Positions 8,787 through 38,258 are shown, numbered from the stretch's first letter. The stretch: 55,123 nucleotides of DNA from Pedosphaera sp. (GCA_009695285.1 SIBH01000002.1:1-55123), one strand, 5' to 3'. Numbers and translations: made by a program. The notes: generated from the letters alone by a model not told the origin.

Positions 8787-8928
8787 TTTAGTCGGGCCGC
8801 CTCGTCACGGTTTCCCCCCTTCCTTCCCGGAATCGCCTGTTGAACCTCTGCAAAACTCCAGCCCATCGTCGCGGTTGGCCAGCAGACCGCCCGTTTCTCC
8901 ACCTAAACCGGAACCAAGCAGTAGGAAT

Positions 8929-9075: not shown

Positions 9076-9117
9076 CTGCATTTCAACTGCCGGGAAGCGA
9101 CCACGCAGGATTAAGTA

Positions 9118-10124: not shown

Positions 10125-10144
10125 ATGCTTCAATTGTTCCACCG

Positions 10145-10219
10145 GGTAGGGCGGGCAGTCCTCTGCCCGCCGCTGGTTGCAATCGCCCGATGGCGCGCAC
10201 GGAGTGACGCGCCCCACCT
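10145..10219. repeat. GTAG-type REP doublet
   Basis: ggtagggcgggcagtcctctgcccgccg ... tggcgcgcacggagtgacgcgccccacc; the left arm recurs at 47921. Confidence 0.7.
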
Positions 10220-25200: not shown

Positions 25201-26503
25201 GAACAACTATTTTCTTGCGAACAACTATGCCACCCTGAACCAATGGGCTTTCCCGAACGGAACAGAAATCAATCCCGGCGAGTTCAAAATCATTTTCGCC
25301 GATGCCCAGACCGGGCAGTCCACCCCCGCCGAGCTGCACACCAGCTTCCGGCTCACCAACACCACCGGCTCCGTCGCCCTCTCGCGGCTCGTCAATGGCC
25401 AGATGCAGGTCGTTGATTATCTCAACTATGGCGGCATCGGCTCGGGCCGCTCCTACGGCGATTCTCCCGACGGCCAGTCCACCAACCGCCAGGAATTTTA
25501 CGTGGTCACGCCCGGCGCGACCAACAACAGTATCTCCCCGCCGCTGGTCGTCTTCATCAACGAATGGATGGCCGACAACCTCACGACGCTGGCCGACCCG
25601 GCGGATGGCGATTACGAAGACTGGTTTGAAATTTACAATCCCGGCACCAACACCGTGAGCCTTTCCGGCTTCTACCTGACCGACACCCTGACCAACAAAT
25701 TACAATTCCTCATTCCCGCCGGCTTCACCATTCCGCCCGGCGGCCACCTGCTGGTCTGGGCCGACAATGAAACCACCCAGAACAGTCCAAGCCGGGTTGA
25801 CCTCCACGTCAACTTCAAGTTGAGCGCCTCCGGCGAGGCCATCGGACTGTTCGCCGCCGATGGCACGCAGATCGACGCCGTGACTTTCGGCGCGCAGACT
25901 GCCGATGTCAGCCAGGGCCGTTTCCCCGACGGCACCGGCCCGGTTTATGCCATGACCAACACCACGCCGCACGCCGCCAACCTCAGTCCGTTCCCCAACG
26001 CGCCGCCCGCGCTCGCTGTGATCAGCAACAAGTTCGTCCACGCCGGCCAGACGATCTTCTTCAACGCCGCCGCCACCGACAGTGATCTGCCGACGCAGGC
26101 ATTGACGTTCTCGCTCGACGCCGCGCCCTCGGGCGCGGGCATCGAGCCGGCGACCGGGCTGTATTTCTGGACCCCGACCGCCGCGCAGACGCCAGGCACC
26201 AACGCCGTCACCATTCGCGTGACGGACAACGGCCTGCCCGCCCTCTTTGCCACCCGCACGTTCAGCATCACCGTCATCGCCGCGCCAAGCGTGACCGGCG
26301 TGAACCGTTTCGGTGATGAGCTGGTGCTGACCTTGCAGACCTGTCCTGGGCGCACCTACCGCGTGGAATTCAAGGACGACCTCAGTGCCGGCTCGTGGAC
26401 GCCGCTCGGCGGAAACATCACCGCCGGGGGCGAAAGCCTCTCGATCACCAACGACCTCTCCGCCGCCCAGCAGCGCTTCTACCGCGCCGTGGTCGTGGAG
26501 TGA
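19217..26503 (+). CDS. Large secreted lamin-tail-domain / CotH kinase protein with Ig-like, CBM-like and cadherin-like domains
   Basis: Signal peptide; Ig domain (APIITVQP..YQWLRNG); repeated lamin-tail starts (LSEIMY, INEFLA, INEIM, INEVQ, INEWMA); CotH-like NMYSY..WKLLIWDIDF; C-terminal RFYR tail. Confidence 0.85.
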   Translation: MIIHFVGRLFLVSALITCATGISRVEAQINSAPIITVQPTNVVLIEGGTAIFGIQLAWSTGATYQWLRNGTNIPGATNPDFSISPVVLVENTNRFQCFVTNAYGNTNSSEAILKVLPDTTRPVISSVPGGFIPARTNSDMRFVSLTGKVRTPARLLLYLGDIGEVYIDDLFLANGSLAEAGTNLIVNGDFETPFSGAPALTNFFTSVGFYHTNSVISQTNARTGSNSLRIISTNNSSFALNKILYKDIPGVTNDQTCTLSFWYRPTFNCTNLYARFQSSTIGSSSVPAAILTPTITPATNLSPVSNLGDGQSITIYFSEPVDSATASVAANYTFNNGVTVSAVTLGDDGRSVILNTSPFQFLTTYVLTVNNVRDRAMVPNVILPNSQMSFVLDHTPLDMGILTGPVEPIGASSRRGPLVLSEIMYHAAPRADGRNLEFIELYNSQEWFEDIGGYRISGAVDYTFPTNTLLSAHGYVLLAAVPADIQAVYGISGALAYTGSLPNDSGTLRIRNRQDAVLWETTYDSKTPWPVSPDGAGHSLVLARPSFGEGDPRAWAASDLVGGTPRTNETASANPYRTVVINEFLAHTDDPELDFIELFNYSTQAVNLAGCVLTDDAATNKFTLPPGTTIPARGFVVYNQNQLGFSLSSAGETIYLKNTNGTRIIDAVRFEGQANGISSGRYPAGAPGICELQTKTPGSNNTRRLLRGIVINEIMHSPVSSDSADEFVELFNRGTNAVNLSKWTLRGGISFTFPSNAVIVANGYVVVANSAARLMSNYPGLNAANTFGDYGGKLGGSESVALTMPDDAVSTNQSGGFVTNKIHIVVDEVLYRSGGRWGPYAAGGGSSLELIDPRNDRRLAPNWADSDETAKNDWVTVQFTGAIDNGQGAADALHIIAIGAGEWLVDDVEVFRTNAPAVNLVSNPNFSSGMTGWVGQGVMNLTSADATGGIGNSGCLHVRASRSGNTGNRVRTTLTSGLNGGEIVTIRAKVRWLKGDPEILFRLKGSWLEAPGTVLTAKNLGTPGASNSVARVNAGPVITDVRHRPVLPAVGQNVTVTARVHDYDGLSSLVLKYRIDPATNYTIAAMNNNGAGFYSAVISGQPANTIAAFFIEAQDNFFPHALTRFPNNAPQRECLVRFGDPELPGNNFGTYRFWITQATINKWSAREQLSNDPLDITFIYGTNRVIYNSGGVYSGSPYHQGYNSPVGGECDYVLSFPKDDALLDETEVTLSRPGNGGGDGTLAREQTAYWIANQLGLPLCYRRTVNVIANGVRRGAAMEDVQQPGSDMAKEWYPDDSDGETYKIQIWFEFDDAMSGFSGVGCNLGNYTATGGAKKLARYRWNWAKRGFTGSSTNYTSLYGLVDSVNNSLNGAAYTARVESSVDVDQWFRTFVVEHIVGNGDSYAYGGGQNMYSYKPVNGLWKLLIWDIDFAFASSGPTSEMFSPGGRSYSPDIDHPPFRRLYYQAMIDAVNGPLLAANSTPLLDARYAGFVASGINPEGPAGTKDFIAQRRNYILTLITNVAAPFSLSGGSFSTNKNLVTLSGLAPVGVRTIRINSIEALVTWTALTSWTANVVLPGGTNSINVQGYNPHDVLLATATNVFTVNVTLPPALPQDFIVINEIMFNPAVAGGEYVEIYNTSTNSYFDLSFWQLSGANYTFPNGSFIAPRGFIVLVKNRATFAAAYGAGISVFDEFSGSLQSNGETLSLIKPGATPAQDVVIDRVRYETVAPWPVGANGTGSSIQLIDPKQDHSRPGNWSGNYIAGGFFPASTNSNPRFVSLTGVMSTIPRLLLYLGEVGDVYIDDLFLANGSFAEAGTNYIVNGSFENLLSGAPSLTNFFTSVGTYHANSVIAVTNAHSGSSSLRIISTNNSSFALARILYKDIPGPTNGQTCTFSFWYRPTYGATNLFARFQSSTIGSSAIPAAVVNPVITLATNVPSMAFRTPGATNSMVATLPAFPPLWINEVQPDNITGIFDNADQRDPWIELYNSGTNVIILNNYFLANNYATLNQWAFPNGTEINPGEFKIIFADAQTGQSTPAELHTSFRLTNTTGSVALSRLVNGQMQVVDYLNYGGIGSGRSYGDSPDGQSTNRQEFYVVTPGATNNSISPPLVVFINEWMADNLTTLADPADGDYEDWFEIYNPGTNTVSLSGFYLTDTLTNKLQFLIPAGFTIPPGGHLLVWADNETTQNSPSRVDLHVNFKLSASGEAIGLFAADGTQIDAVTFGAQTADVSQGRFPDGTGPVYAMTNTTPHAANLSPFPNAPPALAVISNKFVHAGQTIFFNAAATDSDLPTQALTFSLDAAPSGAGIEPATGLYFWTPTAAQTPGTNAVTIRVTDNGLPALFATRTFSITVIAAPSVTGVNRFGDELVLTLQTCPGRTYRVEFKDDLSAGSWTPLGGNITAGGESLSITNDLSAAQQRFYRAVVVE
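19601..20116 (+). repeat. Internal 516-bp domain duplication, copy 1
   Basis: GGFIPARTNS...LLLYLGDIGEVYIDDLFLANGS...FWYRPT...TPATN, the same length as copy 2. Confidence 0.9.
24503..25018 (+). repeat. Internal 516-bp domain duplication, copy 2
   Basis: GGFFPASTNS...LLLYLGEVGDVYIDDLFLANGS...FWYRPT...TLATN; long identical nucleotide runs shared with copy 1. Confidence 0.9.
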
Positions 26504-27940
26504 TCAGCCGCGCAATAGCGTGGTGCACACAGTCCGCAGCTTCTTCAACTGCGCCGCCGTCTTCGCCTCGAGGTAGCAGCGGATGAGCGGCTCCGTGCCG
26601 CTGGCGCGGAAGGCAACCCACTCGCGGTTGGGCAGGAGAAATTTGTAGCCGTCGGTCGTGATGAACTTTTCCACCTTGAACGAACCGACCCGGTCCAGCC
26701 CGGCGGCGAGTTTTTTGAGCAGGGCTTCCTTCGCCTCCGGCGTGAGACGGACGTTGAGCCGGTCGCTGTGGAATTCACCGGTTTGTTTTTCGAGCGCCTT
26801 GAGAATATGGCCGAGTGATTTCTTTTCTGTCGCGACCAGTTCCGCCATCAGCAGGCAGGCGAGCACGCCGTCCTTCTCCGGCACATGGCCCTTCACGCTC
26901 AGGCCGCCGGACTCCTCGCCGCCGACGATGATCGACTCGCTCTCCATCAGCGCGCCGATGTATTTGAAACCGACGGGTGTCTCGTAAAGTTTCACCCCGA
27001 GCAGTTCCGCGACCGCATCGACCTGATGGCTCGTCGGCACCGTGCGCACGACCGCGCCGGTCCAGCCACGATTCTTTTTCAAATGATACAATGCGAGCGC
27101 GAGAATCTGGTTCGGCGTGAGCCAGGTTCCATCCTTATCGACGATGCCGAAGCGATCCGCGTCGCCGTCGAGGCCGAGGCCCATCTGCGCCCGGCCGCTG
27201 CGGACGAACTTGCTGACTTCGGCCATGCCCTCGGCGTTCGGTTCCGGGTGATGGCCGCCGAAGAGCGGGTTCAGTTCATTGTGAAACAGCGTGACCTTCG
27301 CGCCGGCCTCTTCGAGCAGCGTGTCGAGATAGCCGCTCCCGGTCCCATACATCAGCTCGACGGCGAGCTTCATCTTCGCCTTTTTGATGGCCGCGAAATC
27401 GACCAGCTTCCGGAGCTGTTTGAAATAGTCCGGCTGCGGATCAATCGTCTGGCACTGGAAAGTCCCGACGACGGCGGCCTTGAAACTCCAGTTCCCCGCG
27501 ATGAGTTTGGCGATGTTCGCCTCGATCTGCTTCGTGGCCTCCGGCGGGGCGGCCGCGCCGTTGCTTGTGGAAAATTTCAGCCCTTGGTACTCGGCGGGAT
27601 TGTGGCTGGCCGTCAGGTTGAAGCCGCCCACGGCCTTCCGCACCCGGATGGTGTGGGCGATGACCGGCGTGGGCGCGTCGCGCTGGCAGAGCAGGGGGCT
27701 GAAGCCGCTGGCCGCGAGCACCTCGGCCACGGCCAGGGAAAATTCGCGTCCGAGAAAGCGCGTGTCATGGCCGATGATGACGACGGGCCTGCGTCCGTAG
27801 ATTTCCGATTTCCGATTTCCGATTTCCGATTTCAGGTGGTCCGCGATGCCCTGCGTCGCGAGTCGGACGTTGTCGAAGGTGAAGTCGCGCGCGATCAGGC
27901 CGCGCCAGCCGCTGGTGCCGAATTTGATGGGGGAGTTCAT
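26504..27940 (-). CDS. Phosphoglucomutase/phosphomannomutase family protein
   Basis: IKFGTSGWRG, TASHNP, DGDADR, GEESGG, RASGTEP; ATG at 27940. Confidence 0.95.
   Translation of the reverse strand: MNSPIKFGTSGWRGLIARDFTFDNVRLATQGIADHLKSEIGNRKSEIYGRRPVVIIGHDTRFLGREFSLAVAEVLAASGFSPLLCQRDAPTPVIAHTIRVRKAVGGFNLTASHNPAEYQGLKFSTSNGAAAPPEATKQIEANIAKLIAGNWSFKAAVVGTFQCQTIDPQPDYFKQLRKLVDFAAIKKAKMKLAVELMYGTGSGYLDTLLEEAGAKVTLFHNELNPLFGGHHPEPNAEGMAEVSKFVRSGRAQMGLGLDGDADRFGIVDKDGTWLTPNQILALALYHLKKNRGWTGAVVRTVPTSHQVDAVAELLGVKLYETPVGFKYIGALMESESIIVGGEESGGLSVKGHVPEKDGVLACLLMAELVATEKKSLGHILKALEKQTGEFHSDRLNVRLTPEAKEALLKKLAAGLDRVGSFKVEKFITTDGYKFLLPNREWVAFRASGTEPLIRCYLEAKTAAQLKKLRTVCTTLLRG
27800..27833. repeat. 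Heptamer tandem repeat (GATTTCC)x~5 inside the pgm/pmm gene
   Basis: Seen directly; translated as KSEIGNRKSEI. Confidence 0.9.
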
Positions 27941-27941
27941 G

Positions 27942-28021
27942 TTGGAGTTCACGCTTCAACGTGTGAGTCTCTGTTCAGGGAGTTGGTGCGTCATGGGAAC
28001 AAGCTAAAGCTTGAACTCCAG
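27942..28021. repeat. REP-like doublet (TGGAGTTC family)
   Basis: ttggagttcacgcttcaacgtgt ... acaagctaaagcttgaactccag fills the nuoA-pgm gap; related to 53000-53059. Confidence 0.65.
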
Positions 28022-28022
28022 C

Positions 28023-28418
28023 TCAGCTTTTCCAGTCAAACGCCTTTTTCTTCAGCGCGTAAATGTAGCCGACGAAGAGCACGCTGAGGAAGGTGAGCAT
28101 CGAGCCGAAGATCAGGCCGGAGTTTTTCGCGAGCTGTTCCTTGTAAACCACCGCCCACGGGTAGAGGAACACCACCTCGATGTCGAACAGGATGAAAAGC
28201 ATCGCCACCAGATAAAATTTCACGGAGAGCCGGGAGTTCCCTTCGCCGACCGGCAACATGCCGCATTCGTAGGCGATGTCCTTGACCTTGGTGGTGCGCG
28301 CCTTAATTTTTTTATTGGCCCAGCGCCCCAGCACCACGGATGCGACGAGCATCGCCGCCGTGAACCCGATGGCCACGACCGCCAAAATCAAGACCGGCAT
28401 GTACTGTTTCAATTGCAA
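28023..28418 (-). CDS. nuoA: NADH-quinone oxidoreductase subunit A
   Basis: YECG, FYLVAMLFILFDIEVVFLYPWA, KKAFDW. Start is probably TTG at 28418, 7 nt after a TACTTT -10 box. Confidence 0.93.
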   Translation of the reverse strand: MQLKQYMPVLILAVVAIGFTAAMLVASVVLGRWANKKIKARTTKVKDIAYECGMLPVGEGNSRLSVKFYLVAMLFILFDIEVVFLYPWAVVYKEQLAKNSGLIFGSMLTFLSVLFVGYIYALKKKAFDWKS

Positions 28419-28425
28419 TGCGGCA

Positions 28426-28454
28426 AAAGTAGAAATGCCTCCGGCCTTTGGCAA
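28426..28454 (-). promoter_or_regulatory. Promoter of nuoA (leaderless)
   Basis: Minus strand TTGCCA-17nt-TACTTT. Confidence 0.6.
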
Positions 28455-28502
28455 GTGCATTCAACAGCGAGCACGAGATTTCACGTCCGCGAAAACCATC
28501 GG

Positions 28503-28531
28503 TTGCCAGTGCCGGTCAACCCCTGTAATTT
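28503..28531 (+). promoter_or_regulatory. Promoter of the Fe-S/radical SAM/prenyl synthase operon
   Basis: TTGCCA-17nt-TAATTT, 10 nt before the ATG at 28542. Confidence 0.6.
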
Positions 28532-28541
28532 CGGCCCCGAC

Positions 28542-28952
28542 ATGACCACGCCGCCGCGCATTTTATATTGCCACTGCAACTACGCCCAAGTCGTGCCTAA
28601 AGAGGTGAAGGAGGCGGTGCTGAAAAAACTTTGCGAATCCGGCGTGGCCTTCGAGGCCGTGGCCGACCTCTGCGAAATGTCCGCGCGCCGCGATCCCGCG
28701 CTGCAACGGTTGGCCGAAGGTGGCACGGTGAAAATCGCCGCCTGCTTCCCGCGCGCCGTGAAATGGCTCTTCGCCGCTGCCCAGGCGCCGCTCCCCGCCG
28801 ACGGCGCGGAAGTGATCAACATGCGCGTGCAAACCGCCGAGGAAGTTTCAGCCGCATTGTTCAGTGAGGAACTCAAACCCAATTTGCCCAAAGGAAAAGC
28901 CGCCCCCGCCGACGCTCCCTCCGTTCAACCCGAAACCGCCGCCGCCACCTGA
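28542..28952 (+). CDS. Small Cys-rich protein resembling the HdrA N-terminal Fe-S domain
   Basis: RILYCHC...DLC...KIAACFPR...VINMR parallels the HdrA pattern VFVCHCG...C...VVAACSPR...NIRE. Confidence 0.7.
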   Translation: MTTPPRILYCHCNYAQVVPKEVKEAVLKKLCESGVAFEAVADLCEMSARRDPALQRLAEGGTVKIAACFPRAVKWLFAAAQAPLPADGAEVINMRVQTAEEVSAALFSEELKPNLPKGKAAPADAPSVQPETAAAT

Positions 28953-28977
28953 TCACGCACCACGCACCATTTCCCCC

Positions 28978-29838
28978 ATGTCTCTCCAAGATCAAACCAC
29001 TCTCCGCATCGTCCTCTACGAAGGCGACGGCTCGCAGCCGTTAGAAGCCCCCGGCCGCTTTGCCGCGATGACCGCGCTGTTGGAAAAAGGTTTCGCCGTC
29101 ACCCGCGCCGCCGCCGCTGGGGCACCCGCGCGCGCCGACCGCAGTTCGCTCCTCGTGCTCGGCCAGTTCATCGGTGGGAAACCACCGCAGGCCGAGGACG
29201 CCGCCGGCGAAGTTTCTATCCGCTTTCAGGACATCACCGGCTTCGACGCCGCGCGCATTGCCGAGAGCGTCGAGTCCGCCCGCGCGTTGACCAGCGCCGT
29301 GAAGCAGGGCGACTGGAAGCCGTGGTTCCCGGTCATCGACTACGACCGCTGCACGAACTGCATGCAGTGCCTGAGCTTCTGCCTCTTCGGCGTCTATGGC
29401 GTCGATGACGGGCAAAAAATCCAGGTGCAGAACAACGACAACTGCAAGACCAACTGCCCCGCCTGCTCGCGTGTCTGTCCCGAAGCCGCGATCATGTTTC
29501 CGAAATACAAGGCCGGCCCGATTAACGGCGACGTGGTGAGCGACTCCGACCTGAACCGCGAGAAGATGAAGGTGGATATTAGCGCGCTGCTCGGCGGCGA
29601 TGTTTATTCGATGCTCCGCGAGCGCAGTGAAAAGGCGCAAAGCCGTTTCAGCAAGGAGCGCGACGCCGACAAGGCGCTCAAGGAACGGCAGAAATGCCTC
29701 GTGAAACTTGCCCAGGCCGGCGACATCCCGGCGGAAGTCCTGATGAGCCTGCCGTCGCCGGATGAAATCATGCGCCGCGCGGAAGAGGCGAAGGCGAAGG
29801 GGCAGGCGGCGCTCGCGATGCAAAAGCAAACGAGCTAA
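28978..29838 (+). CDS. 2x[4Fe-4S] ferredoxin-domain protein
   Basis: PVIDYDRCTNCMQCLSFC and CKTNCPACSRVCP. Confidence 0.85.
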   Translation: MSLQDQTTLRIVLYEGDGSQPLEAPGRFAAMTALLEKGFAVTRAAAAGAPARADRSSLLVLGQFIGGKPPQAEDAAGEVSIRFQDITGFDAARIAESVESARALTSAVKQGDWKPWFPVIDYDRCTNCMQCLSFCLFGVYGVDDGQKIQVQNNDNCKTNCPACSRVCPEAAIMFPKYKAGPINGDVVSDSDLNREKMKVDISALLGGDVYSMLRERSEKAQSRFSKERDADKALKERQKCLVKLAQAGDIPAEVLMSLPSPDEIMRRAEEAKAKGQAALAMQKQTS

Positions 29839-29862
29839 AAATCTCCTGCCGGTGGAGCAAAT

Positions 29863-30711
29863 ATGACATCCGCGACTATTAAACTGTTCTTGCCGCGTGG
29901 TGACGCCAAAAGCCTACGCACGGCCGAAATCTCCAACTGGACAGGCAAGGCCATTGCAGCGCCTCGCACCGAACTCGATGAACTGCTTGCACGCGAGGAA
30001 CTCGACAAAGCAGGCATTTATATCCTTACGGGCAATGATCCGATTACCAATGCGCCCCGGGCTTACATCGGGGAGGCTGAGGTCATTCGCGAACGCCTCA
30101 AGCAACACAGGACGAAGGAATTCTGGGTGTCAACCATCGTCTTTGTGAGCAAGGACGAGAACCTTACTAAAGCGCACGTCCGTTACCTTGAGAGCCGACT
30201 CCTCGCAGAAGCGGGAGAGATTGGAAGGTTCACGCTCGAACAGAATCAAGCCGGCGGATCCAAGCTTCCCGAATCGGACCGTGAGGACATGGAGGTGTTT
30301 TTCTCTCGCATCCGTCAGCTACTGCCGGTTCTCGGCTCAGATATTCTTGCTCCTGTTTTTCAACCCGCTACTAAATCTCAGCCGGGAGGCGTGCTTTTCT
30401 GCCGAATCAAAGGCGCTGAAGCTCGCGGCCAGCGGACAGCGAATGGCTTTGTTGTCTTCGGGGGCTCCACTGCGGTCTTGGAGGAGCGGCCATCCGCAGA
30501 GAGCTACCCGGGAGTCACTGTCCAACGAAAATACTTTATTACTGACAAGACGCTGGTCGAAAAAAATGGGATGTTAGTCTTCACAAAAGATTGCGAGTTC
30601 ACGAGTCCGTCAGCAGCAGCTGTAGTGATTCACGGCGGAAGTGCCAATGGACTGTCAGCTTGGAAGACGAAAGATGGAACGTCCCTTAAAAAACTAGACG
30701 AAAGCGCCTGA
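29863..30711 (+). CDS. GIY-YIG nuclease family protein with DUF4357-like C-terminus
   Basis: AGIYIL...AYIGEAE..RERLKQH, YLES, C-terminal FTSPSAAA..GGSANG..AWK; visibly more A/T-ending codons than its neighbours. Confidence 0.85.
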   Translation: MTSATIKLFLPRGDAKSLRTAEISNWTGKAIAAPRTELDELLAREELDKAGIYILTGNDPITNAPRAYIGEAEVIRERLKQHRTKEFWVSTIVFVSKDENLTKAHVRYLESRLLAEAGEIGRFTLEQNQAGGSKLPESDREDMEVFFSRIRQLLPVLGSDILAPVFQPATKSQPGGVLFCRIKGAEARGQRTANGFVVFGGSTAVLEERPSAESYPGVTVQRKYFITDKTLVEKNGMLVFTKDCEFTSPSAAAVVIHGGSANGLSAWKTKDGTSLKKLDESA

Positions 30712-30715
30712 TCAC

Positions 30716-32014
30716 ATGCTGCCTCAACTCATCTTCCGTACCCTGCGCTCCGCAAACAAGCGGTGCATCGCGAAGTTCTGCTGGAACTTCGGTGTGAAGG
30801 GCATGCTGTCGGTCGAGAAGTTCAAGCGACGCATCCAGCGCGGCGAGTTTTTCCCCCCGTTCCTCTACGTCTCGATCCTCAACTCCTGCAACCTCCGCTG
30901 CCAAGGCTGCTGGGTGGATGTGGAGGAGAAGGACGCCATTGACCTCGACACGCTCAACCGCACCATCACCGACGCCAAGCGGCACGGGAACGCGTTCTTC
31001 GGCATCCTCGGCGGCGAGCCGTTCATGCACCCACAGTTGCTCGACCTGCTCGCGGCGCATCCGGATTGTTATTTTCAAGTCTTCACCAACGGCCAGCTCA
31101 TCACGGAGAAAATCGCCAGGCGCCTGCGCGAGATCGGCAACGTCACGCCGCTCATCAGCATCGAAGGCCGCGAGATCACCAGTGACACGCGGCGCGGCAA
31201 AAAGGAAGTCTTCACCCGCACCTTGCGCGGTCTCGACAACTGCCTGCGCGAGGGCTTGCTCACCGGCGTCGCCACCAGCGTCTGCCAGTCGAACATTGAC
31301 GAACTGCTCACCGAATCGTGGTTGCAGGAGCTTATTGACCGGGGCGTTCACTACGTCTGGTATCACACCTACCGCCCGGTCGGTCCGAAGCCGAACTTCG
31401 ATCTCGCGTTGCGCCCTGACCAACTCGTGCGCGTGCGGAAGTTCATCGTCGAGATGCGCGCCAAGATGCCCATCGCGATGATTGACGCCTACTACGACGG
31501 CGAGGGCAAGGCGCTCTGCCCAATGTCCACGGGCGTGAGTCATCACATCGGCCCCAAGGGCGACATCGAGCCGTGCCCGATCATCCAGTTCGCGACCGAG
31601 AACATCCGCGACCCGCGCGGCATCTACGCGACGATGCGCGACAGCACGTTCTTGAAAGACTTCCGCGAACTCAGCGCGCACCACACGCGCGGCTGCGTAG
31701 TGCTGGAACGCCCCGACCTCGTGAAGGAACTCGTCGTGAAGCACGGCGCGCGCGACACGACCGTGCGCGGCACCGCGATGGCCGAACTGGAAGCGATGAC
31801 CCCGCGTTTCAGCCAATGGCTCCCCGGCGAGGAAATTCCCGAGAAGCACTGGATGTATCGGCTCTCGAAGAAGTATTGGTTCTACGACTTCAACGCTTAC
31901 AAAAATGTCGCTCACGACGCCGAGGCCAAGGCGCGGGAATTGAAATCAAAGCTCGACCCGCTTCCCGCCGCTGCGAATACTTCGGGCGCGAGCCCTGAAC
32001 TCGTGAATAAATGA
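30716..32014 (+). CDS. Radical SAM protein with SPASM/twitch-like C-terminal region
   Basis: CNLRCQGC, GGEP, FTNG, ISIEG; C-terminal CPMSTG..HIGPKGDIEPCP and RGC. Confidence 0.9.
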   Translation: MLPQLIFRTLRSANKRCIAKFCWNFGVKGMLSVEKFKRRIQRGEFFPPFLYVSILNSCNLRCQGCWVDVEEKDAIDLDTLNRTITDAKRHGNAFFGILGGEPFMHPQLLDLLAAHPDCYFQVFTNGQLITEKIARRLREIGNVTPLISIEGREITSDTRRGKKEVFTRTLRGLDNCLREGLLTGVATSVCQSNIDELLTESWLQELIDRGVHYVWYHTYRPVGPKPNFDLALRPDQLVRVRKFIVEMRAKMPIAMIDAYYDGEGKALCPMSTGVSHHIGPKGDIEPCPIIQFATENIRDPRGIYATMRDSTFLKDFRELSAHHTRGCVVLERPDLVKELVVKHGARDTTVRGTAMAELEAMTPRFSQWLPGEEIPEKHWMYRLSKKYWFYDFNAYKNVAHDAEAKARELKSKLDPLPAAANTSGASPELVNK

Positions 32015-32033
32015 CCAGTCGCGCCATCTGAAC

Positions 32034-33818
32034 ATGAGTATGCAGCCCATCACCTTGAACGCCGTCGGCAGTTTCACTCCCGGGAGCGTCAGCATCCCCA
32101 AGCACGCCGTTCAGCAGCGCGTGCGCCCGCCCAAGAAAAACGTCCCGCAGACCGGCATGGAGCGGACGCACATTCTCAACACCGTCCGCCGCTACGTCGC
32201 CGAGTTTAATCCCATCCCGCCGATGCCGTCCGACGAACTCAAGGTCCATGCCGACCGGCTCGTCGAGATGCTCAAGTGCGACGCCATCTACCGCGACTAC
32301 ATCGGCGTGCTCCTGAACAACGAAATGTGGCGCGAGAGCGTGGCCGCCATTCCGTTCGAGCGCCGTCTGCTCCTGCTTCCGAAATGCCTGCGCGTCGAGA
32401 GCAAATGCCCTGCGCCCTTCGATGAATTCGGTCTGCTGTGCAAACAATGCGGCCTCTGTTCCATCCAGGACTTGCAGGCCGAGGCGGAGAAACTGGGTTA
32501 TGCCGTGCTCGTGGCCGAAGGTTCCGCCATCGTCATGTCGCTCATTCAGACCGGGAAGATTGAAGCCATCGTCGGCGTGAGCTGCCTGAGCGTTTTGGAA
32601 CGCGCGTTTCCCTACATGGAAGCCGCCGCGATTCCCGGCGTCGCGGTGCCGCTGCTCCAGGACGACTGCATCGACACCACGGTCGATCTCGACTGGGTCT
32701 GGGATTACATCCATCTGACCAGCGACGACAAAACGCGCCGCCTTGACCTCGGCGCGCTCCGTGAAGAAGTGGACTTCTGGTTCTCACCCGCGTCGCTTGA
32801 CCTCATCATGGGCAACGCCGACGGCGAGACCGAGCGCATCGCCCGCGAATGGCTGGGCCGTGCCGGCAAACGCTGGCGGCCGTTTCTCGCCGTCTCCACG
32901 TTCCAGGCGTTGCGCGCCGACACCGGCCAACCGCTGCCCGATGACATTAAAAAAATCGCCGTCGCGGTCGAATGTTTCCACAAGGCCTCGCTCATCCACG
33001 ACGACATCGAAGACAACGACGCGACGCGCTACGGTGAGAAAACGCTCCACGAAGAATACGGCGTGGCTGTCGCGCTGAACGTCGGTGATCTCCTCATCGG
33101 CGAAGGCTACCGGCTGATCGGGGCCAGCAAAATTTCCGCCGAACAGAAGGCCGAGATGCTGCTCGTCGCCAGTCAGGGCCAGCGTCAACTTTGCCGTGGT
33201 CAGGGCGCAGAACTCTGCTGGGCGCGCCAGCCCGAACCGCTCACTTCCCTGCAAGTGCTCGATATTTTTCGCAGCAAAACCGCGCCGGCCTTCGAGGTTG
33301 CGCTGCAATTCGGCGCGCTTTATGCCGGACTGGAACAGCACGGGGAAGTCTGCGACACGCTCCAGGTTTACAGCGAGGCCCTCGGCATCGCCTACCAGAT
33401 CCGCGACGACCTCAGCGACCTCGGCGCGGGCGGCGAGACGAACGACATCGCCGGACTTCGCCCTAGCCTGCTGCTGGCCGTCGCCTACGAACGCGCGCAG
33501 GCCGAGAAGAAAATCTTGCTCGAATTCCTCTGGCGTCGCGCGCCGCAGGCGGGCGTGAATCCCGAGCAGATCGAGGCGCTCTACGTGGAACTGAAGGCCG
33601 ACGAACGTGCCCGCACCCTGCTGGAAACTTACAAGGAAGAGGCCATCCGCTGCCTGCGCGATCTGGAGAATCCGAATTTGAAGGGCCTGCTCCGCCGCGT
33701 CCTCGGCAAGATTTTCAACGACACGGAAATCAAAGGCTGGTGCAAGGAATTCGAGCAGCAGAACACTGCCGGACGGCTGCTGGTGGTGGAACCGGCCGCG
33801 CCGGCCCCGGTGGCGTGA
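32034..33818 (+). CDS. DUF116 domain - trans-polyprenyl diphosphate synthase fusion
   Basis: DUF116-like LLPKCLR..CPA..CKQCGLC..GVSC..DCIDT; prenyl synthase GKRWRP, FARM HKASLIHDDIED, GQ, KT, SARM YQIRDDLSD. Confidence 0.88.
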   Translation: MSMQPITLNAVGSFTPGSVSIPKHAVQQRVRPPKKNVPQTGMERTHILNTVRRYVAEFNPIPPMPSDELKVHADRLVEMLKCDAIYRDYIGVLLNNEMWRESVAAIPFERRLLLLPKCLRVESKCPAPFDEFGLLCKQCGLCSIQDLQAEAEKLGYAVLVAEGSAIVMSLIQTGKIEAIVGVSCLSVLERAFPYMEAAAIPGVAVPLLQDDCIDTTVDLDWVWDYIHLTSDDKTRRLDLGALREEVDFWFSPASLDLIMGNADGETERIAREWLGRAGKRWRPFLAVSTFQALRADTGQPLPDDIKKIAVAVECFHKASLIHDDIEDNDATRYGEKTLHEEYGVAVALNVGDLLIGEGYRLIGASKISAEQKAEMLLVASQGQRQLCRGQGAELCWARQPEPLTSLQVLDIFRSKTAPAFEVALQFGALYAGLEQHGEVCDTLQVYSEALGIAYQIRDDLSDLGAGGETNDIAGLRPSLLLAVAYERAQAEKKILLEFLWRRAPQAGVNPEQIEALYVELKADERARTLLETYKEEAIRCLRDLENPNLKGLLRRVLGKIFNDTEIKGWCKEFEQQNTAGRLLVVEPAAPAPVA

Positions 33819-33928: not shown

Positions 33929-34834
33929 TCAACTCCCCGCCGGATGACTGGCCGACCACGCCAACCCCACCACCCCGGCCACGGCGATCACTCCGCCGAG
34001 CAACGACCGCTTCGTGGGCCGCTCACCCTCCACCCACTGCGCCAGCGGCACGATCACGAGCGGCGTCAAGGCCACCACCGGCAGCACCTCGCCCGCGCTG
34101 TGGTGCATCAAGGCGAGTTGATAACAGCCCACGCCCAGCACCGGCCCCGCGAGCGTGCCCGCCAGCAGCCACGGCCAGGCCTCGCCCTTCAGCGGACTGT
34201 TTTTTTCCCTGGAACCTCGCAACGAAAAAAAATACCAGACCACCATCGCGATTAGGAGTCCGCCGAGAATCCGTTGATAGCTCGCGGTCAGCGGGCTGAT
34301 CGAATGGCCCGCCATCTCCACCACCGCGTAGCCTTTGCGCGACAGCACCACGCCCAGTCCCTGGCCCACGCCCGCGATGACTCCGCAGACCGTCCCGATC
34401 CAGAACGTGCGCCGGGAAATCTCCAGATGCCCGCTCGGCGCCAGCGCCACCACCACGCCCGCCAGTGTCACCAGCGCGAACAGAATTTTTAGCGACGTCA
34501 GCGGCGTGCCCAGCCAGAACCATTCCACGGTGGCGGCGAACGGCGCGGCTAGACAATGCACCAGCAGCACCGACAACCTCGAACCGATCCGCGGCAACGC
34601 CTCGTAAAACGCCACGTCCCCCAGGCCGAAGCCCGCGATGCCACTCAGAAAAAACCAGCCGAACGCCCCGCCACTCCAGCCCTCCCCGAAGAGATGCGCG
34701 TAGGCCGCGAGCAGGATGGTCGCCAGCAGGATGCGAAAAAAGTTCGCGCGCACGCCGCCGAGCACTTTGGCAATGCGATGCGCGCACACCCCGGAGAGTG
34801 CGAAGCAAATGGTCGTGGCAAAAGCGGCCCACAT
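33929..34834 (-). CDS. DMT/EamA family transporter
   Basis: About 10 hydrophobic helices in two repeats; GFGLGD..F, GERP..GGVIAVAGV. Confidence 0.85.
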   Translation of the reverse strand: MWAAFATTICFALSGVCAHRIAKVLGGVRANFFRILLATILLAAYAHLFGEGWSGGAFGWFFLSGIAGFGLGDVAFYEALPRIGSRLSVLLVHCLAAPFAATVEWFWLGTPLTSLKILFALVTLAGVVVALAPSGHLEISRRTFWIGTVCGVIAGVGQGLGVVLSRKGYAVVEMAGHSISPLTASYQRILGGLLIAMVVWYFFSLRGSREKNSPLKGEAWPWLLAGTLAGPVLGVGCYQLALMHHSAGEVLPVVALTPLVIVPLAQWVEGERPTKRSLLGGVIAVAGVVGLAWSASHPAGS

Positions 34835-35060: not shown

Positions 35061-38000
35061 ATGAGTTTCACCGATTTAACAGAAGCCTTTTTGGCGAAGA
35101 TCGCGGGCTGGGACGCGGTCAAAAACGCGCGCGCCCTACTGGCCGCCGACAAGGTTCTCAGCTCGAACTGGACGCCGCCCATCCTCAAGGGCGTCGTGCA
35201 GGAAGGCTCGGCGTCGTATCGCGCCGGGTTGGTCATCAAGGACACAATCAACATCGAGAACATGTGCTCGTGCCGCGCCTCGCGCGACGCGGGGATGATC
35301 TGCGCGCACTCGGTCGCGGTCGGCCTGCATCATTTGCAGCGGGGTAAGGCTCCGGCGCTGGGAGCCGCGAGCACCACGGCCACGCTGGTGCCGATGCGCG
35401 CCGGGGCGTCGAGAACCGCGCGCGAACCGGAGCCGGAAGCCGGGCCGCGTTTGCGCCGCGCCTCGCTGGGTGAAGCGGGTGAGGCCTTGGAAATTTCCGT
35501 GATTCTCCCGCCGACCTTCGCCGCCGGCCTCGAGCGCGGCAAAGTCATGGCGACGTTCGAGGGCAAATGGAGCGGTGGCCGCGCGCCGCTGAGCGCGCTG
35601 CCGATGGCGAAGGCGTTCCGGCTTTCCGCCGAGGACACGCGGTTGCTCGACATGGCCGAGCATCTTGCCGGCGGCGAAACGCCCGGCGGACTGATGTTGA
35701 ATCTCGTCGAGTTGACGCAATTGCTCGGCGCGCTGGCCGGCCATCCGCGCGTGGCGCTGGGACGCGGCCAACCGCTGGCCGTTTCGGCGACGGCCTGGCG
35801 CGTGCCGATTCAGGCGACGCTCGAAACATCCGGCGAGATTCGCCTGAACCTGCCGCCGGAGGCGGCGCGTCCGCTGCTCATTGCGGGCGAAACGCTCTGG
35901 GCCTTCCACGGCGCGGCGCTGGAGCCGGTCGCATTGCCGAAGCAATGGCGCGAGCTGTTTCGCGGCCCGATAAAACTTTCCCGGCAGCGCGTGCCGCTCT
36001 TCCTCAGCCAAGAACTCGCCGTGCTCGAGGCTGAGTGCGACGTGGACGCGAATTTTGTTCTCGAAGAATTCACGCTCGAACCACAGCCGCCGCGCTTCGT
36101 GCTCGCGCTCAACGGCGGGCTGGCGCAGGTGCAGGCGCAGTTGCAGTGCGCCTACGGGGCGCGCGTCATGACCGTGGGCGTGACCGCGAAGGACGAGACG
36201 CTTTGGCTGCCCGATCCGAAAAGCACCACGCGCTATTCGACGCGCGATTTCGGGACGGAGATGGCCGCGACGGAGCGGATGAGGCGCGCGGGTTTCATCG
36301 GGCCGGACACGCAGGGCCGCTGGAATCTGCACGGGGAAAACGCGGTGGTGAATTTTTTCGCGCGCGAGTTTCCGCGCCTGCAAAAGGAGTGGGACGTGAC
36401 GCTGGAGGAACGGCTGGAGCGGAGCACGGCGAAAAATTTCGAGCGCATCGAGCCGCACCTGCAAATCACGCCGTCGGGCGAGCGGTGGTTTGATGTCGAG
36501 ATGTCGCTGGCCTCGGAAGATGGTGAAAAGTTTTCGGCGGCGGACATTCAGCGTTTGATTTTGTCTGGCTCCAGTCACACGCGCTTGAAGAACGGGCGCA
36601 TCGCGCTGATCGACACGGGCGCGCTGGAGGAGTTCAACGAGGTGCTGCGGGATTGTGCGCCGCAGCAGCACGAGAAGGGCTACCGGTTGAGCGGCGTGCA
36701 GGCGGGTTTTCTCGACGCGACACTGCGGCAGCAGCCGGGCTGGCAGGTGCAGGCGTCCGCCGCGTGGCGCGAGCGCGCGGCGCAGCAGAGCGGCCAGACG
36801 AAGCTGGAATGTCCGCCGCTGGGCGTGCTCGAAGATGTGCTGCGCCCATATCAAAAGCAGGGCGTGGCGTGGCTGCGTTTTTTGCGCGAGAACCATTTCG
36901 GCGGAATCCTGGCGGACGAGATGGGGCTGGGGAAAACGCTGCAAACATTGGCCTTCGTGGCGGTAACGCGGAACGAGGAACGCGGAATGCGGAACAGGGA
37001 AACTGCGAGCCGCAAACCGTATTTGATCGTTTGTCCGACTTCGCTGGTTTTCAACTGGGTGGCGGAGGCGAAGAAATTCACGCCGGAGTTGAAGGTTCTG
37101 GCGCTGCACGGCGCGGGGCGGCACGAGCTGTTTGATAAAATTCCGGAGAGCGATCTCGTCATCACCAGTTACGCGCTGATCCGACGCGACGCGGAGCGGT
37201 ATCGTGAAATGGAGTTCGACACGCTGGTGCTCGACGAGGCGCAGCACATCAAGAACCGGCAGACGCAAAACGCGGTCGCGGTGAAGGCGGTGCGGGCGCA
37301 GCACCGGCTCGTGCTCACCGGCACGCCGATGGAAAACTCGGTGCTCGATCTCTGGAGCATTTTTGACTTTTTGATGCCGGGCTATCTCGGCGCGGCGCAG
37401 GATTTCCGCGAGCGTTACGAGCAGCCGATCACGCGGGACAAGGATCTCGCTGCGCAGTCGCGGCTGGGACGGCGGCTGCGTCCGTTCATTCTGCGCCGGC
37501 TGAAGCGCGACGTGGCGAAAGACCTGCCGGCGAAGCTGGAACAGGTTTCGTACTGCGAACTCACCGAGGACCAGCAGCAGGTGTATCAGCAAATTCTCGC
37601 GGTCAGCCGCCGGGAAGTGATGGCGGCGGTCGGCGCGCAGGGTCTGGCGAAAAGCCGCATGGTGGTGCTGAACGCGCTGCTGCGGTTGCGGCAGATTTGC
37701 TGCGACTTGCGCCTGCTGAAACTCGATGAGGACAAGTTCACCGACGAGAATTCCGGCAAACTGGAGATGTTTGGCGAACTGCTCGAAGAGGCGATGGACG
37801 GTGGACATCGCGTGCTGGTGTTCAGCCAGTTTGTTTCGATGCTCACGCTGCTCCGGGAAAAACTCGCGGCGGACAAGGTTGAGTATTGCTACCTCGACGG
37901 CTCGACGATGAATCGCGGCGCGGTGGTGGAAAAATTTCAGGCGAACGAAAAAATTCCGGTATTCCTCATCAGCCTCAAGGCGGGCGGCGTCGGCCTCAAC

Positions 38001-38258
38001 CTGACCGGCGCGGACACGGTAATTCATTTCGATCCGTGGTGGAATCCGGCGGTGGAGGACCAGGCCACCGACCGGGCGCATCGCATCGGGCAGACGCGCG
38101 TGGTGACGAGCTACAAGCTGATCACGCGCGGCACGGTGGAGGAAAAAATTCTGGCGTTGCAGCAGCGCAAGCGCGCGGTGATCAAGGCCACGCTCGGCGG
38201 CGAGGAATCACTCACGGAGAACCTGACGTGGGAGGAGATTCAGGGGTTGTTTGAGTGA
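35061..38258 (+). CDS. SWIM zinc finger - SNF2 family helicase
   Basis: CSC...CAH SWIM motif; LRPYQ, LADEMGLGKT, DEAQ, TGTP, FSQF, QATDRAHRIGQ. Confidence 0.95.
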   Translation: MSFTDLTEAFLAKIAGWDAVKNARALLAADKVLSSNWTPPILKGVVQEGSASYRAGLVIKDTINIENMCSCRASRDAGMICAHSVAVGLHHLQRGKAPALGAASTTATLVPMRAGASRTAREPEPEAGPRLRRASLGEAGEALEISVILPPTFAAGLERGKVMATFEGKWSGGRAPLSALPMAKAFRLSAEDTRLLDMAEHLAGGETPGGLMLNLVELTQLLGALAGHPRVALGRGQPLAVSATAWRVPIQATLETSGEIRLNLPPEAARPLLIAGETLWAFHGAALEPVALPKQWRELFRGPIKLSRQRVPLFLSQELAVLEAECDVDANFVLEEFTLEPQPPRFVLALNGGLAQVQAQLQCAYGARVMTVGVTAKDETLWLPDPKSTTRYSTRDFGTEMAATERMRRAGFIGPDTQGRWNLHGENAVVNFFAREFPRLQKEWDVTLEERLERSTAKNFERIEPHLQITPSGERWFDVEMSLASEDGEKFSAADIQRLILSGSSHTRLKNGRIALIDTGALEEFNEVLRDCAPQQHEKGYRLSGVQAGFLDATLRQQPGWQVQASAAWRERAAQQSGQTKLECPPLGVLEDVLRPYQKQGVAWLRFLRENHFGGILADEMGLGKTLQTLAFVAVTRNEERGMRNRETASRKPYLIVCPTSLVFNWVAEAKKFTPELKVLALHGAGRHELFDKIPESDLVITSYALIRRDAERYREMEFDTLVLDEAQHIKNRQTQNAVAVKAVRAQHRLVLTGTPMENSVLDLWSIFDFLMPGYLGAAQDFRERYEQPITRDKDLAAQSRLGRRLRPFILRRLKRDVAKDLPAKLEQVSYCELTEDQQQVYQQILAVSRREVMAAVGAQGLAKSRMVVLNALLRLRQICCDLRLLKLDEDKFTDENSGKLEMFGELLEEAMDGGHRVLVFSQFVSMLTLLREKLAADKVEYCYLDGSTMNRGAVVEKFQANEKIPVFLISLKAGGVGLNLTGADTVIHFDPWWNPAVEDQATDRAHRIGQTRVVTSYKLITRGTVEEKILALQQRKRAVIKATLGGEESLTENLTWEEIQGLFE
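36964..36998 (+). repeat. Degenerate heptamer repeat (GAACGCG) inside the SNF2 gene
   Basis: taacgcg gaacgag gaacgcg gaatgcg gaacagg; translated as TRNEERGMRNRE. Confidence 0.7.

What the first reader, a model, noticed from the sequence alone, without database searches (positions are those of the whole stretch)
28503..33818. Candidate undescribed Fe-S / radical-SAM isoprenoid-modifying operon (HdrA-N-like protein, ferredoxin, radical SAM, DUF116-polyprenyl synthase)
Seen: one promoter-like element followed by five co-directional genes with gaps of 25, 24, 4 and 19 nt. Four of the genes carry Cys motifs consistent with Fe-S or metal binding. The last is a trans-prenyl synthase with intact FARM (DDIED) and SARM (DDLSD) motifs. 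Established: trans-prenyl synthases make C15-C20+ diphosphates, and radical SAM enzymes need a low-potential electron donor. Some radical SAM enzymes form C-C bonds between lipid chains (archaeal tetraether synthase, bacterial membrane-spanning lipid synthase). Inference: this is a self-contained module that makes a polyprenyl chain and reductively couples or modifies it without O2, for example a non-HpnCDE/non-Sqs route to a squalene-like or membrane-spanning isoprenoid. I know of no characterised pathway with this gene set.
Basis: partly seen in the sequence, partly recalled or inferred. Interest (0 to 1): 0.85.

Follow-up and report, generated by a model that had tools for sequence, protein, structure and literature searches.

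The report
Iron-sulfur terpenoid pathway core, uncharacterised
These genes are the core of a conserved but uncharacterised bacterial pathway that builds a long isoprenoid chain, alters it with oxygen-independent radical chemistry and, in most relatives, hands it to an orphan family of hopanoid-like cyclases whose product nobody knows.

Summary
Five co-directional genes sit at the stated spacing, four of them Cys-rich, and the last is a DUF116-polyprenyl synthase fusion with intact FARM and SARM motifs. The promoter claim is not better than chance. Gene 3 does not belong: it is a low-GC candidate phage-defence gene (PADLOC PDC-S14/DUF4357) inserted in this genus.

The other four genes are a real functional unit. 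They are syntenic across Verrucomicrobiota and share one presence/absence pattern in 41 related genomes (27-29 present, 12 lack all four). They also occur as natural fusions (g1+g2, and g1+g2+radical SAM).

In relatives the operon is longer: GcvH-like, CobW-like GTPase, g1, g2, radical SAM, DUF116-PPS, a small alpha-alpha toroid protein, and a divergent class II cyclase with an invariant DADD motif. This genome carries the GcvH-like, CobW-like and cyclase genes on other contigs. The toroid gene was not found in it (57% complete).

Squalene synthase-type genes, SHC and HpnH occur with or without the module, so it does not replace them. The radical SAM is not HpnH and not Tes-like.

Best reading: a second, dedicated route to a modified, usually cyclised, head-to-tail polyprenoid. 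The product and the radical SAM reaction are unknown. Parts of the context are already in print, but no function is.

The parts
28542..28952 (+). g1: small alpha/beta protein with 4 invariant Cys (CxC...DLC...AC-PRAV), probably an Fe-S electron carrier.
   Evidence: No Pfam or NCBIfam family. Alignment A2 of 30 homologues. AlphaFold model with pLDDT 81. Only weak fold matches to RpiB, HdrA and MvhD. Fused to g2 in G019 (L025:4938-5777) and to g2 plus radical SAM in P0125.
28978..29838 (+). g2: 286-aa protein with a 2x[4Fe-4S] ferredoxin domain (residues 117-172) between N- and C-terminal extensions.
   Evidence: Pfam Fer4_6, Fer4_2 and Fer4_10 over cut-off. PorD/KorD-like below cut-off. Always adjacent to g1 in relatives.
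29863..30711 (+). g3: inserted PDC-S14/DUF4357 candidate defence gene, not part of the pathway.
   Evidence: PADLOC PDC-S14 E 9.5e-100. DUF4357 71.9 bits. GC dip. Present only in G001 of 16 relatives' loci and in 3 of 80 further loci.
30716..32014 (+). g4: radical SAM enzyme, 432 aa. The CxxxCxxC motif lies at 30887-30910. Extra conserved Cys suggest an auxiliary cluster.
   Evidence: PF04055 51 bits. All NCBIfam equivalogs far below cut-off. Alignment A1. Best solved relatives are SkfB, BlsE and SuiB. About 7,500 database relatives, with the best 120 at 82-100% identity.
32034..33818 (+). g5: DUF116 / trans-polyprenyl diphosphate synthase fusion, 594 aa.
32259..32708 (+). DUF116 domain of g5 (residues 76-225) with 7 invariant Cys including CxxCxxC.
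   Evidence: PF01976 126.5 bits. Alignments A4 and A7. Model with pLDDT 74 and no PDB fold match at E <= 0.001. Described as arCOG02078 in PMC5898192 section 3.6.
32835..33542 (+). Polyprenyl synthase domain of g5 (residues 268-503). FARM DDIED is at 33000-33014 and SARM DDLSD at 33405-33419.
   Evidence: PF00348 145.6 bits. Catalytic residues are invariant, as are Ala318 and Ser319 at positions -5 and -4 before FARM, in 28 of 28 homologues. The closest solved enzyme, 1wy0, has Tyr at -5.

Best explanation
The window holds the core of a dedicated terpenoid pathway of Verrucomicrobiota (per the literature, Planctomycetota too). This pathway is additional to the ordinary squalene/hopanoid route.

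Shown: g1, g2, the radical SAM and the DUF116-PPS fusion form one functional unit. In most relatives it is extended by a GcvH-like protein, a CobW-type GTPase, a small alpha-alpha toroid protein and a divergent SHC-like class II cyclase with an invariant DADD acid motif.

Inferred mechanism:
1. The PPS domain elongates an allylic diphosphate with IPP to a head-to-tail chain probably longer than C20. The residues at -5 and -4 before FARM are small and invariant.
2. Its fused Cys-rich DUF116 domain is an Fe-S redox or sensor partner at that active site.
3. g1 plus g2 form the dedicated low-potential reductase that reduces the radical SAM cluster.
4. The radical SAM performs an oxygen-independent modification of the polyprenyl chain or of its cyclised product. 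My best guess (about 0.3) is hydrogen-abstraction chemistry helped by an auxiliary cluster, forming or functionalising a C-C or C-H bond.
5. Where present, the SHC-like cyclase and the small toroid protein cyclise the chain by protonation.

The product is unknown.
For: Synteny. g1-g2-rSAM-PPS is contiguous in 8 of 16 relatives' loci. Among 80 rSAM-centred loci, many cut by contig ends, g2 is present in 44, PPS in 42 and g1 in 41.

Shared presence/absence over 41 order-level genomes:
- PPS fusion 29, rSAM 27, g1 27, g2 27. The same 12 genomes lack all four.
- Toroid 27, cyclase 27, module-type GcvH-like 26, CobW-like 26. These are found in 1, 2, 0 and 0 of those 12 genomes.

Position of the cyclase. 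It lies directly after the toroid gene in 11 loci. In 10 distant phylum-level loci the cyclase is in 7 and the rSAM is adjacent to the PPS in 5.

Fusions. g1+g2 is fused in G019. g1+g2+rSAM is fused in P0125, 675 aa.

The PPS is an extra paralogue. Genomes with the module typically show 3 PPS matches and those without show 2.

Catalytic motifs are invariant: PPS, cyclase DADD, rSAM.

Contigs from RNA libraries of 4 studies cover g1, g2, rSAM and PPS at 95-99% likeness and bridge the rSAM/PPS junction. This is consistent with transcription but does not prove it.

Literature:
- The DUF116-PPS fusion was noted in Pirellula staleyi, with DUF116 predicted to be a Cys-rich flavodoxin-like electron-transfer domain (PMC5898192, section 3.6 read).
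Against: No product, substrate or chain length was measured. The chain-length rule is recalled, and overall the PPS is most similar to short-chain synthases.

G019 (91% complete) has only g1g2-rSAM-PPS, with no cyclase, toroid, GcvH-like or CobW-like gene found. Cyclisation is therefore not obligatory.

G021 (94% complete) has everything except the rSAM with this query.

The roles of the GcvH-like protein (lipoyl-Lys invariant in 26 of 26), the CobW-like GTPase and the divergent NifS are not explained by this scheme. They could point to protein-bound or sulfur chemistry.

That the cyclase belongs to the published 'SHC-like' clade is inferred, not shown by a tree.

Genomes of kin are not independent samples.
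Confidence: 0.6

Rival explanations
1. The radical SAM joins two polyprenyl chains tail-to-tail, like Tes or Mss. This would give a squalene-like or membrane-spanning isoprenoid, which the SHC-like cyclase may then cyclise.
For: The rSAM and PPS are adjacent and co-inherited. The rSAM has extra conserved Cys, as SPASM/twitch enzymes such as Tes do (review passages). SHC-type cyclases normally take a tail-to-tail C30 substrate.
Against: The only match to the solved tetraether synthase 7tol has E 0.004 and 19 bits, over the rSAM core alone. No glycerol-ether lipid genes were seen in the clusters. All 41 related genomes already have SQS_PSY genes, and 35 of 41 have SHC over cut-off. The published sister clade of the 'SHC-like' cyclases uses all head-to-tail chains. 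Mss was not compared.
Confidence: 0.12
2. The radical SAM works like HpnH. It adds a 5'-deoxyadenosyl radical to a double bond of the polyprenoid or cyclised product, starting an extended polar side chain.
For: HpnH is the only isoprenoid-acting family among the listed NCBIfam matches (E 1.9e-10). Alkene-rich substrates favour radical addition (established chemistry, recalled). A dedicated reductant would be needed to quench the adduct radical.
Against: The HpnH model scores 40.2 bits against a cut-off of 225. Many other families score higher, such as NirJ2, ScmF and AhbC. Identity to the same-genus HpnH is 26% over 101 residues. True HpnH is present over cut-off in 35 of 41 genomes irrespective of the module. 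No HpnG- or HpnI-type follow-up genes were noticed in the clusters.
Confidence: 0.1
3. The real substrate is the GcvH-like carrier protein. The radical SAM, with NifS-derived sulfur and the CobW-type chaperone, would build or modify a lipoyl-like (possibly isoprenoid-derived) prosthetic group. This resembles LipA or LipS chemistry in sHdr-LbpA systems.
For: The GcvH-like and CobW-like genes share the module's presence/absence pattern (26 of 41, and none of the 12 module-less genomes). They head the operon in 25-27 of 80 loci, with a divergent NifS in 17. The lipoyl-Lys is invariant in 26 of 26. In G000 the pair sits beside E2 and E3 genes.
Against: The deepest conserved core across the phylum is rSAM-PPS-cyclase, without GcvH-like or CobW-like genes. 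G019 lacks both. No lipoate ligase or octanoyltransferase was seen in the clusters. The rSAM has no LipA-type N-terminal cluster motif (read from the sequence).
Confidence: 0.08
4. There is no special pathway. The fusion is a redox-regulated housekeeping prenyl synthase, for example for quinone side chains. The neighbours are generic Fe-S proteins kept together by chance or by shared regulation.
For: PPS enzymes feed many pathways. Overall the PPS resembles short-chain synthases.
Against: Twelve of 41 related genomes, most 90-98% complete, lack all four genes, so the unit is not housekeeping. It is found in only 37 of 301 phylum genomes. Two other PPS paralogues are present everywhere. Natural fusions exist and a terpene cyclase is linked.
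Confidence: 0.05

Closest known systems
Hopanoid pathway (HpnCDE/Sqs, SHC, radical SAM HpnH)
   Same: It combines an isoprenoid precursor synthase, a class II protonation-type cyclase with a DxDD motif and a radical SAM enzyme in one lipid pathway. The carriers are bacteria that also make hopanoids.
   Different: The precursor enzyme is a head-to-tail PPS fused to DUF116, not an SQS/PSY-type head-to-head synthase. The cyclase scores 96 bits against a cut-off of 431 for hopene cyclase. The rSAM is not HpnH. The canonical genes coexist with the module and occur without it.
'SHC-like' / unknown-function cyclase clade of the PVC and FCB groups, Spirochaetota and Acidobacteriota (Santana-Molina 2020; MBE 2025)
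   Same: The linked cyclase is a 550-700-aa, highly divergent SHC relative from a PVC bacterium with its catalytic acid motif kept. The published remark that genomic context suggests a non-squalene precursor fits the dedicated PPS found here.
   Different: Membership was not tested by phylogeny here. The papers' main texts do not mention a radical SAM (0 occurrences, search listing) or name the gene set. Their supplementary figure S10 could not be seen.
Epoxy-polyprenyl cyclase systems (Lon15, AtoE) and the Bacillus C35 sporulenol route (HepS/HepT, YtpB, SqhC)
   Same: A dedicated polyprenyl synthase supplies a regular head-to-tail chain to an SHC-family cyclase.
   Different: Those routes use an O2-dependent epoxidase or a YtpB-type synthase. 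They have no radical SAM, no Fe-S partners and no DUF116 (from passages, and recall).
Lipid-modifying radical SAM enzymes Tes/GDGT-MAS, Gms, GrsA/B, Mss
   Same: These also perform oxygen-independent radical chemistry on inert lipid chains. They carry extra Cys for auxiliary clusters. A Tes homologue lies beside a ferredoxin (review passage).
   Different: There is no specific sequence kinship (7tol E 0.004). The substrates there are saturated glycerol-bound chains. None of them is linked to a PPS or a cyclase.
DUF116 / arCOG02078 (Makarova et al. 2015)
   Same: The same domain with the same Cys pattern. The fusion to polyprenyl synthetase was already noted for Pirellula staleyi Psta_0175.
   Different: Archaeal members have two N-terminal transmembrane helices and sit beside sulfite/nitrite reductase or ArsA-like genes. 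Here the domain has a soluble helical N-terminus (model) and is fused to a PPS in a terpenoid cluster.

Membership tests
Radical SAM superfamily (PF04055) | CxxxCxxC cluster motif and a Pfam score over the cut-off | tested here: met
   51 bits against 29.5. C58, C62 and C65 are invariant in A1.
SPASM/twitch radical SAM subgroup | A C-terminal Cys-rich extension binding one or two auxiliary [4Fe-4S] clusters | tested here: inconclusive
   C268, C287 and C327 are invariant. The best solved relatives are the twitch/SPASM enzymes SkfB, BlsE, SuiB and CteB. No Pfam SPASM hit was listed, and all NCBIfam SPASM equivalogs are far below cut-off.
HpnH, adenosyl-hopene transferase (TIGR03470) | Score over the equivalog cut-off of 225 bits, and being the genome's HpnH orthologue | tested here: not met
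   40.2 bits. 26% identity over 101 residues to the HpnH of same-genus G001. A true HpnH is over cut-off in 35 of 41 relatives.
Tetraether synthase Tes / GDGT-MAS | Sequence kinship beyond the radical SAM core | tested here: not met
   7tol E 0.004, 19 bits, query positions 52-178 only.
Membrane-spanning lipid synthase Mss | Homology at the paper's criteria (E <= 1e-50, identity >= 30%) | not tested
   No Mss sequence could be reached with the tools. The criteria were read in PMC13159169 passages.
trans-Polyprenyl diphosphate synthase (PF00348) | FARM DDxxD, SARM DDxxD and the Lys/Arg residues that bind IPP | tested here: met
   145.6 bits against 27. K279, R282, D323, D324, D327, R332, K415, D458 and D459 are invariant in 28 of 28.
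Named PPS equivalogs (FPP, GGPP, HepT, OPP synthases, encapsulin cargo) | Score over the NCBIfam cut-off | tested here: not met
   The best is 128 bits against 450 (encapsulin cargo). All 16 listed are below cut-off.
DUF116 (PF01976 / arCOG02078) | Pfam score, and conserved Cys including CxxCxxC | tested here: met
   126.5 bits against 25. C118, C125, C136, C139, C142, C184 and C212 are invariant. Description in PMC5898192.
   No Pfam or NCBIfam hit. Foldseek gives 7bkd_A E 0.054 at TM 0.40 and 5odc_D E 0.058 at TM 0.38. There are 0 hits at E <= 0.001, and RpiB ranks higher.
2x[4Fe-4S] ferredoxin domain | Two Cys clusters of the CxxCxxCxxxC type, and a Pfam score | tested here: met
   Fer4_6 27.9 against 25, Fer4_2 26.4 against 24.5, Fer4_10 25.7 against 25.5. 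Eight Cys are read in the sequence.
Squalene-hopene cyclase (TIGR01507), for the linked cyclase outside the window | Score over 431 bits | tested here: not met
   96.2 bits. The squalene/oxidosqualene cyclase subfamily scores 128.5 against 322.7. The DADD motif is nevertheless invariant in 12 of 12.
PADLOC PDC-S14 (gene 3) | A full-length profile match | tested here: met
   E 9.5e-100, residues 1-280 on profile positions 21-311 of 320. This library has no curated cut-off.

The most novel reading that the evidence does not exclude
The cluster is an oxygen-independent route to regular (all head-to-tail) polycyclic polyprenoids of the tricyclohexaprenol type. That would make it a biological source for 'orphan' tricyclic terpane biomarkers. 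In this reading the DUF116 Fe-S domain and the g1/g2-driven radical SAM supply the reductive or radical step that replaces O2-dependent epoxidation used by the sister epoxy-polyprenyl cyclases. It would assign a substrate and a function to the whole unknown 'SHC-like' cyclase clade.
Probability: 0.1. Interest if true: 0.9.

Novelty: new variant of a known kind. Interest (0 to 1): 0.65.

Why it matters
A large clade of SHC-like cyclases in the PVC and FCB groups, Spirochaetota and Acidobacteriota has no known substrate or product. Recent work names it as the key gap in the history of triterpenoid cyclases (passages). The linkage shown here gives concrete, testable partners:
- a dedicated PPS whose chain length can be measured;
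- a radical SAM with its own reductase;
- a small toroid protein;
- GcvH-like and CobW-like helpers.

It also gives the first functional context for DUF116 in bacteria, and adds a candidate to the short list of lipid-modifying radical SAM enzymes. The 2026 review lists none like it.

If the product is a regular cyclic polyprenoid, it would bear on orphan biomarkers. Tricyclic terpanes are called orphan in PMC9247107 (passage).

Tried and rejected
- Complex prediction of the radical SAM (A1) with the GcvH-like protein (A5): verdict 'no answer', score 0.00. This is neither for nor against binding.
- Fold searches of the g1 model and the DUF116 model against the PDB: 0 matches at E <= 0.001 each. 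Only generic alpha/beta folds came up.
- ESM Atlas. g1 returned only unnamed Verrucomicrobiota clusters. The DUF116 part returned DUF116 and DUF116/PPS clusters, mostly Planctomycetota, at 0.77-0.84. These are leads only.
- The listing of cluster members on 10 distant rSAM representatives gave almost no organism names. The range outside Verrucomicrobiota therefore rests on the literature and the Atlas lead.
- Literature. 'PF01976' gave 0 papers. 'DUF116' as a whole word gave 2 papers. Combined searches for radical SAM, polyprenyl, cyclase and Verrucomicrobia found no paper describing this gene set.
- Supplementary figure S10 of PMC7306690, which may show the same neighbourhood for Planctomycetes, could not be read.
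- The promoter/terminator scan was no better than shuffles.
- RNA-library contigs. Runs X19 and X21 have no contig over about 29504-30791. No conclusion is drawn from that hole.
Profile and pairwise comparisons were used instead.
- Searches failed on a one-base coordinate slip and were repeated. Script crashed and was fixed.

Full report
**What is in the window.**

- g1 has no Pfam or NCBIfam family.
- g2 has a 2x[4Fe-4S] ferredoxin domain at residues 117-172.
- g3 is a DUF4357 protein.
- g4 is a radical SAM enzyme. Every named NCBIfam equivalog scores far below its cut-off: NirJ2 70 against 500, HpnH 40 against 225.
- g5 is DUF116 (residues 76-225) fused to a polyprenyl synthase (residues 268-503).

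The single sigma-70-like match in the region equals the chance expectation (1 against 0.9) and overlaps the ATG at 28542. That ATG is the more likely start of g1. Conservation among 30 homologues begins there, and the Atlas record of this protein starts at that residue.

The host is a 57%-complete Verrucomicrobiota (Pedosphaera/Limisphaerales-like) freshwater MAG.

**Gene 3 is an intruder.**
- It matches the PADLOC candidate defence family PDC-S14 over its full length, E 9.5e-100.
- Its GC is 0.53-0.55, against 0.60-0.65 on both sides.
- Among 16 relatives' loci it occurs only in the same-genus genome. Among 80 further loci it occurs in 3, each time just upstream of the radical SAM.

**The other four genes are one unit.**

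Synteny. g1-g2-rSAM-PPS is contiguous in 8 of 16 relatives' loci at 38-98% identity. In 80 rSAM-centred loci from named MAGs of Limisphaerales, Chthoniobacterales and Verrucomicrobiales, many cut by contig ends, g2 is present in 44, PPS in 42 and g1 in 41.

Presence/absence over G000 and 40 relatives. The PPS fusion is in 29, the rSAM in 27, g1 in 27 and g2 in 27. The same 12 genomes (82-98% complete) lack all four. The pattern holds even where the genes lie on different contigs.

Fusions. g1 and g2 are one 279-aa protein in G019. A 675-aa metagenomic protein, P0125, is g1+g2+rSAM in one chain. This supports g1/g2 as the radical SAM's own reductase, which is an inference.

Exceptions. G009 and G012 (73% and 87% complete) have fragments only. 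G021 (94% complete) has everything but the rSAM with this query.

**The unit is part of something larger.** In relatives the operon commonly reads: nifS (divergent), GcvH-like, CobW/G3E GTPase, g1, g2, rSAM, DUF116-PPS, a roughly 298-aa alpha-alpha toroid 'Prenyltrans' protein, and a roughly 620-aa divergent SHC-family protein.

| Gene | Found in (of 41 genomes) | Found in the 12 module-less genomes |
|---|---|---|
| Toroid | 27 | 1 (fragments in G015) |
| Cyclase | 27 | 2 (G015 fragments; G026 at 43% identity) |
| Module-type GcvH-like | 26 | 0 |
| CobW-like | 26 | 0 |

The cyclase directly follows the toroid gene in 11 loci. In a phylum-wide sample the PPS fusion is found in 37 of 301 genomes. 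In 10 such distant loci the cyclase is present in 7, and the rSAM is adjacent to the PPS in 5. The deepest conserved core is therefore rSAM-PPS-cyclase.

The cyclase keeps an invariant DADD acid motif in 12 of 12. Its best solved relative is Alicyclobacillus SHC, E 2.5e-30. It nevertheless fails the hopene-cyclase cut-off, 96 against 431 bits.

In this genome the set is scattered:
- nifS, GcvH-like and CobW-like on contig C85;
- the cyclase on C72;
- the toroid gene was not found in G000 (57% complete) but is present in same-genus G001.

G019 (91% complete) carries only g1g2-rSAM-PPS. The window's gene set can therefore stand alone in at least one lineage.

**What it is not.** SQS_PSY genes are in 41 of 41 genomes. 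SHC is over cut-off in 35 of 41 and HpnH in 35 of 41, in genomes with and without the module. G000 itself has two SQS_PSY genes and an SHC fragment. The module therefore does not replace hpnCDE/sqs.

The rSAM shares only 26% identity over 101 core residues with the HpnH of same-genus G001. It matches the solved tetraether synthase at E 0.004 only. Its best solved relatives are the twitch/SPASM enzymes SkfB, BlsE and SuiB.

**Clues to chemistry.**
- The PPS catalytic residues are invariant in 28 of 28 homologues, as are Ala318 and Ser319 at -5 and -4 before FARM.
- The closest solved enzyme, GGPP synthase 1wy0, has Tyr at -5. By the recalled chain-length rule, small residues there allow products longer than C20.
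- Genomes with the module have a third PPS on top of the two found everywhere.
- DUF116 has 7 invariant Cys, including CxxCxxC. It has no solved structural relative.
- g1 folds as a small alpha/beta protein with 4 invariant Cys. Its resemblance to MvhD and HdrA is only weak.
- The GcvH-like protein keeps the lipoyl-lysine in 26 of 26. The CobW-like protein has a CxCC motif, read.
- I cannot place GcvH-like, CobW-like or NifS in a mechanism.

**Expression.** Contigs from metatranscriptomic libraries of four studies cover g1, g2, rSAM and PPS at 95-99% likeness and span the rSAM/PPS junction. DNA carry-over cannot be excluded.

**Literature.**

| Paper | What I read | What it says | Call(s) |
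|---|---|---|---|
| Makarova et al. 2015, PMC5898192 | Section 3.6 | DUF116/arCOG02078 is a Cys-rich, probably flavodoxin-like electron-transfer domain. Notes its fusion to polyprenyl synthetase in Pirellula staleyi. | 38 |
| Santana-Molina et al. 2020, PMC7306690 | Passages | Planctomycete 'SHC-like' cyclases keep catalytic residues. Their genomic context suggests a precursor other than squalene. The figure is supplementary and was not seen. | 51 |
| 2025 cyclase phylogeny, PMC12324236 | Passages | Calls this clade (PVC, FCB, Spirochaetota, Acidobacteriota) functionally unknown. [quoted passage not shown]
| 2026 review of lipid-modifying radical SAM enzymes, PMC13459092 | Outline and passages | Lists Tes, Mss, Gms, GrsA/B, Gmm, Cds, HpnH, HpnJ, HpnP/R, Jaw5 and ladderane enzymes. 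'Polyprenyl' occurs 0 times. | 98, 99 |

I found no paper that describes this gene set or a function for it.

**Verdict.** This is a real, conserved, uncharacterised terpenoid module. It is four genes, not five. It is usually not self-contained. It is not a substitute for squalene synthesis. It shows no Tes or HpnH kinship.

The most likely function is a second, dedicated route to a modified, usually cyclised, head-to-tail polyprenoid. The radical SAM step and the product remain open. That the linked cyclase belongs to the published 'SHC-like' clade is an inference that a tree should test.

Noticed in passing
window 29863-30711: A PDC-S14/DUF4357 candidate phage-defence gene with low GC sits inside the operon between g2 and the radical SAM. 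It is seen only in this genus and in 3 of 80 other loci, always at the same place.
   Followed up: partly
P0125 (metagenomic protein, 675 aa); L025:4938-5777: Natural fusions of g1+g2+radical SAM and of g1+g2. These are Rosetta-stone evidence that the two small Fe-S proteins serve the radical SAM.
   Followed up: partly
L110 (G000:C72) 7282-9109; also L073 3829-5688 and L102 2351-4173: A small DMT-like membrane protein and a PaaK/F390-synthetase-like adenylating ligase sit next to the cyclase in this genome. The same pair lies near cluster genes in two other loci, so it may be a further member. A pyridine-nucleotide disulfide oxidoreductase follows at L110:9216-10625.
   Followed up: no
L116 (G000:C85) 4076-10197: The nifS, GcvH-like and CobW-like genes of this genome lie directly beside a lipoyl-domain E2 acyltransferase and an E3 dihydrolipoyl dehydrogenase.
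   Followed up: no
window 19217-26503: A 2428-aa protein with six lamin-tail domains and a CotH domain.
   Followed up: no
window 26504-28460, - strand: nuoA (Oxidored_q4) is followed downstream by a phosphoglucomutase/phosphomannomutase gene rather than nuoB. It is divergent from g1 across an 81-nt spacer.
   Followed up: no
window 35061-38258: A SNF2-family helicase with a bacterial SNF2-associated domain lies just beyond an EamA transporter gene (33929-34834, - strand) that ends the cluster here.
   Followed up: no
L037 and L040: In two relatives that also carry the PDC-S14 insert, g1 lies about 5 kb from g2. This suggests further insertions into the operon.
   Followed up: no
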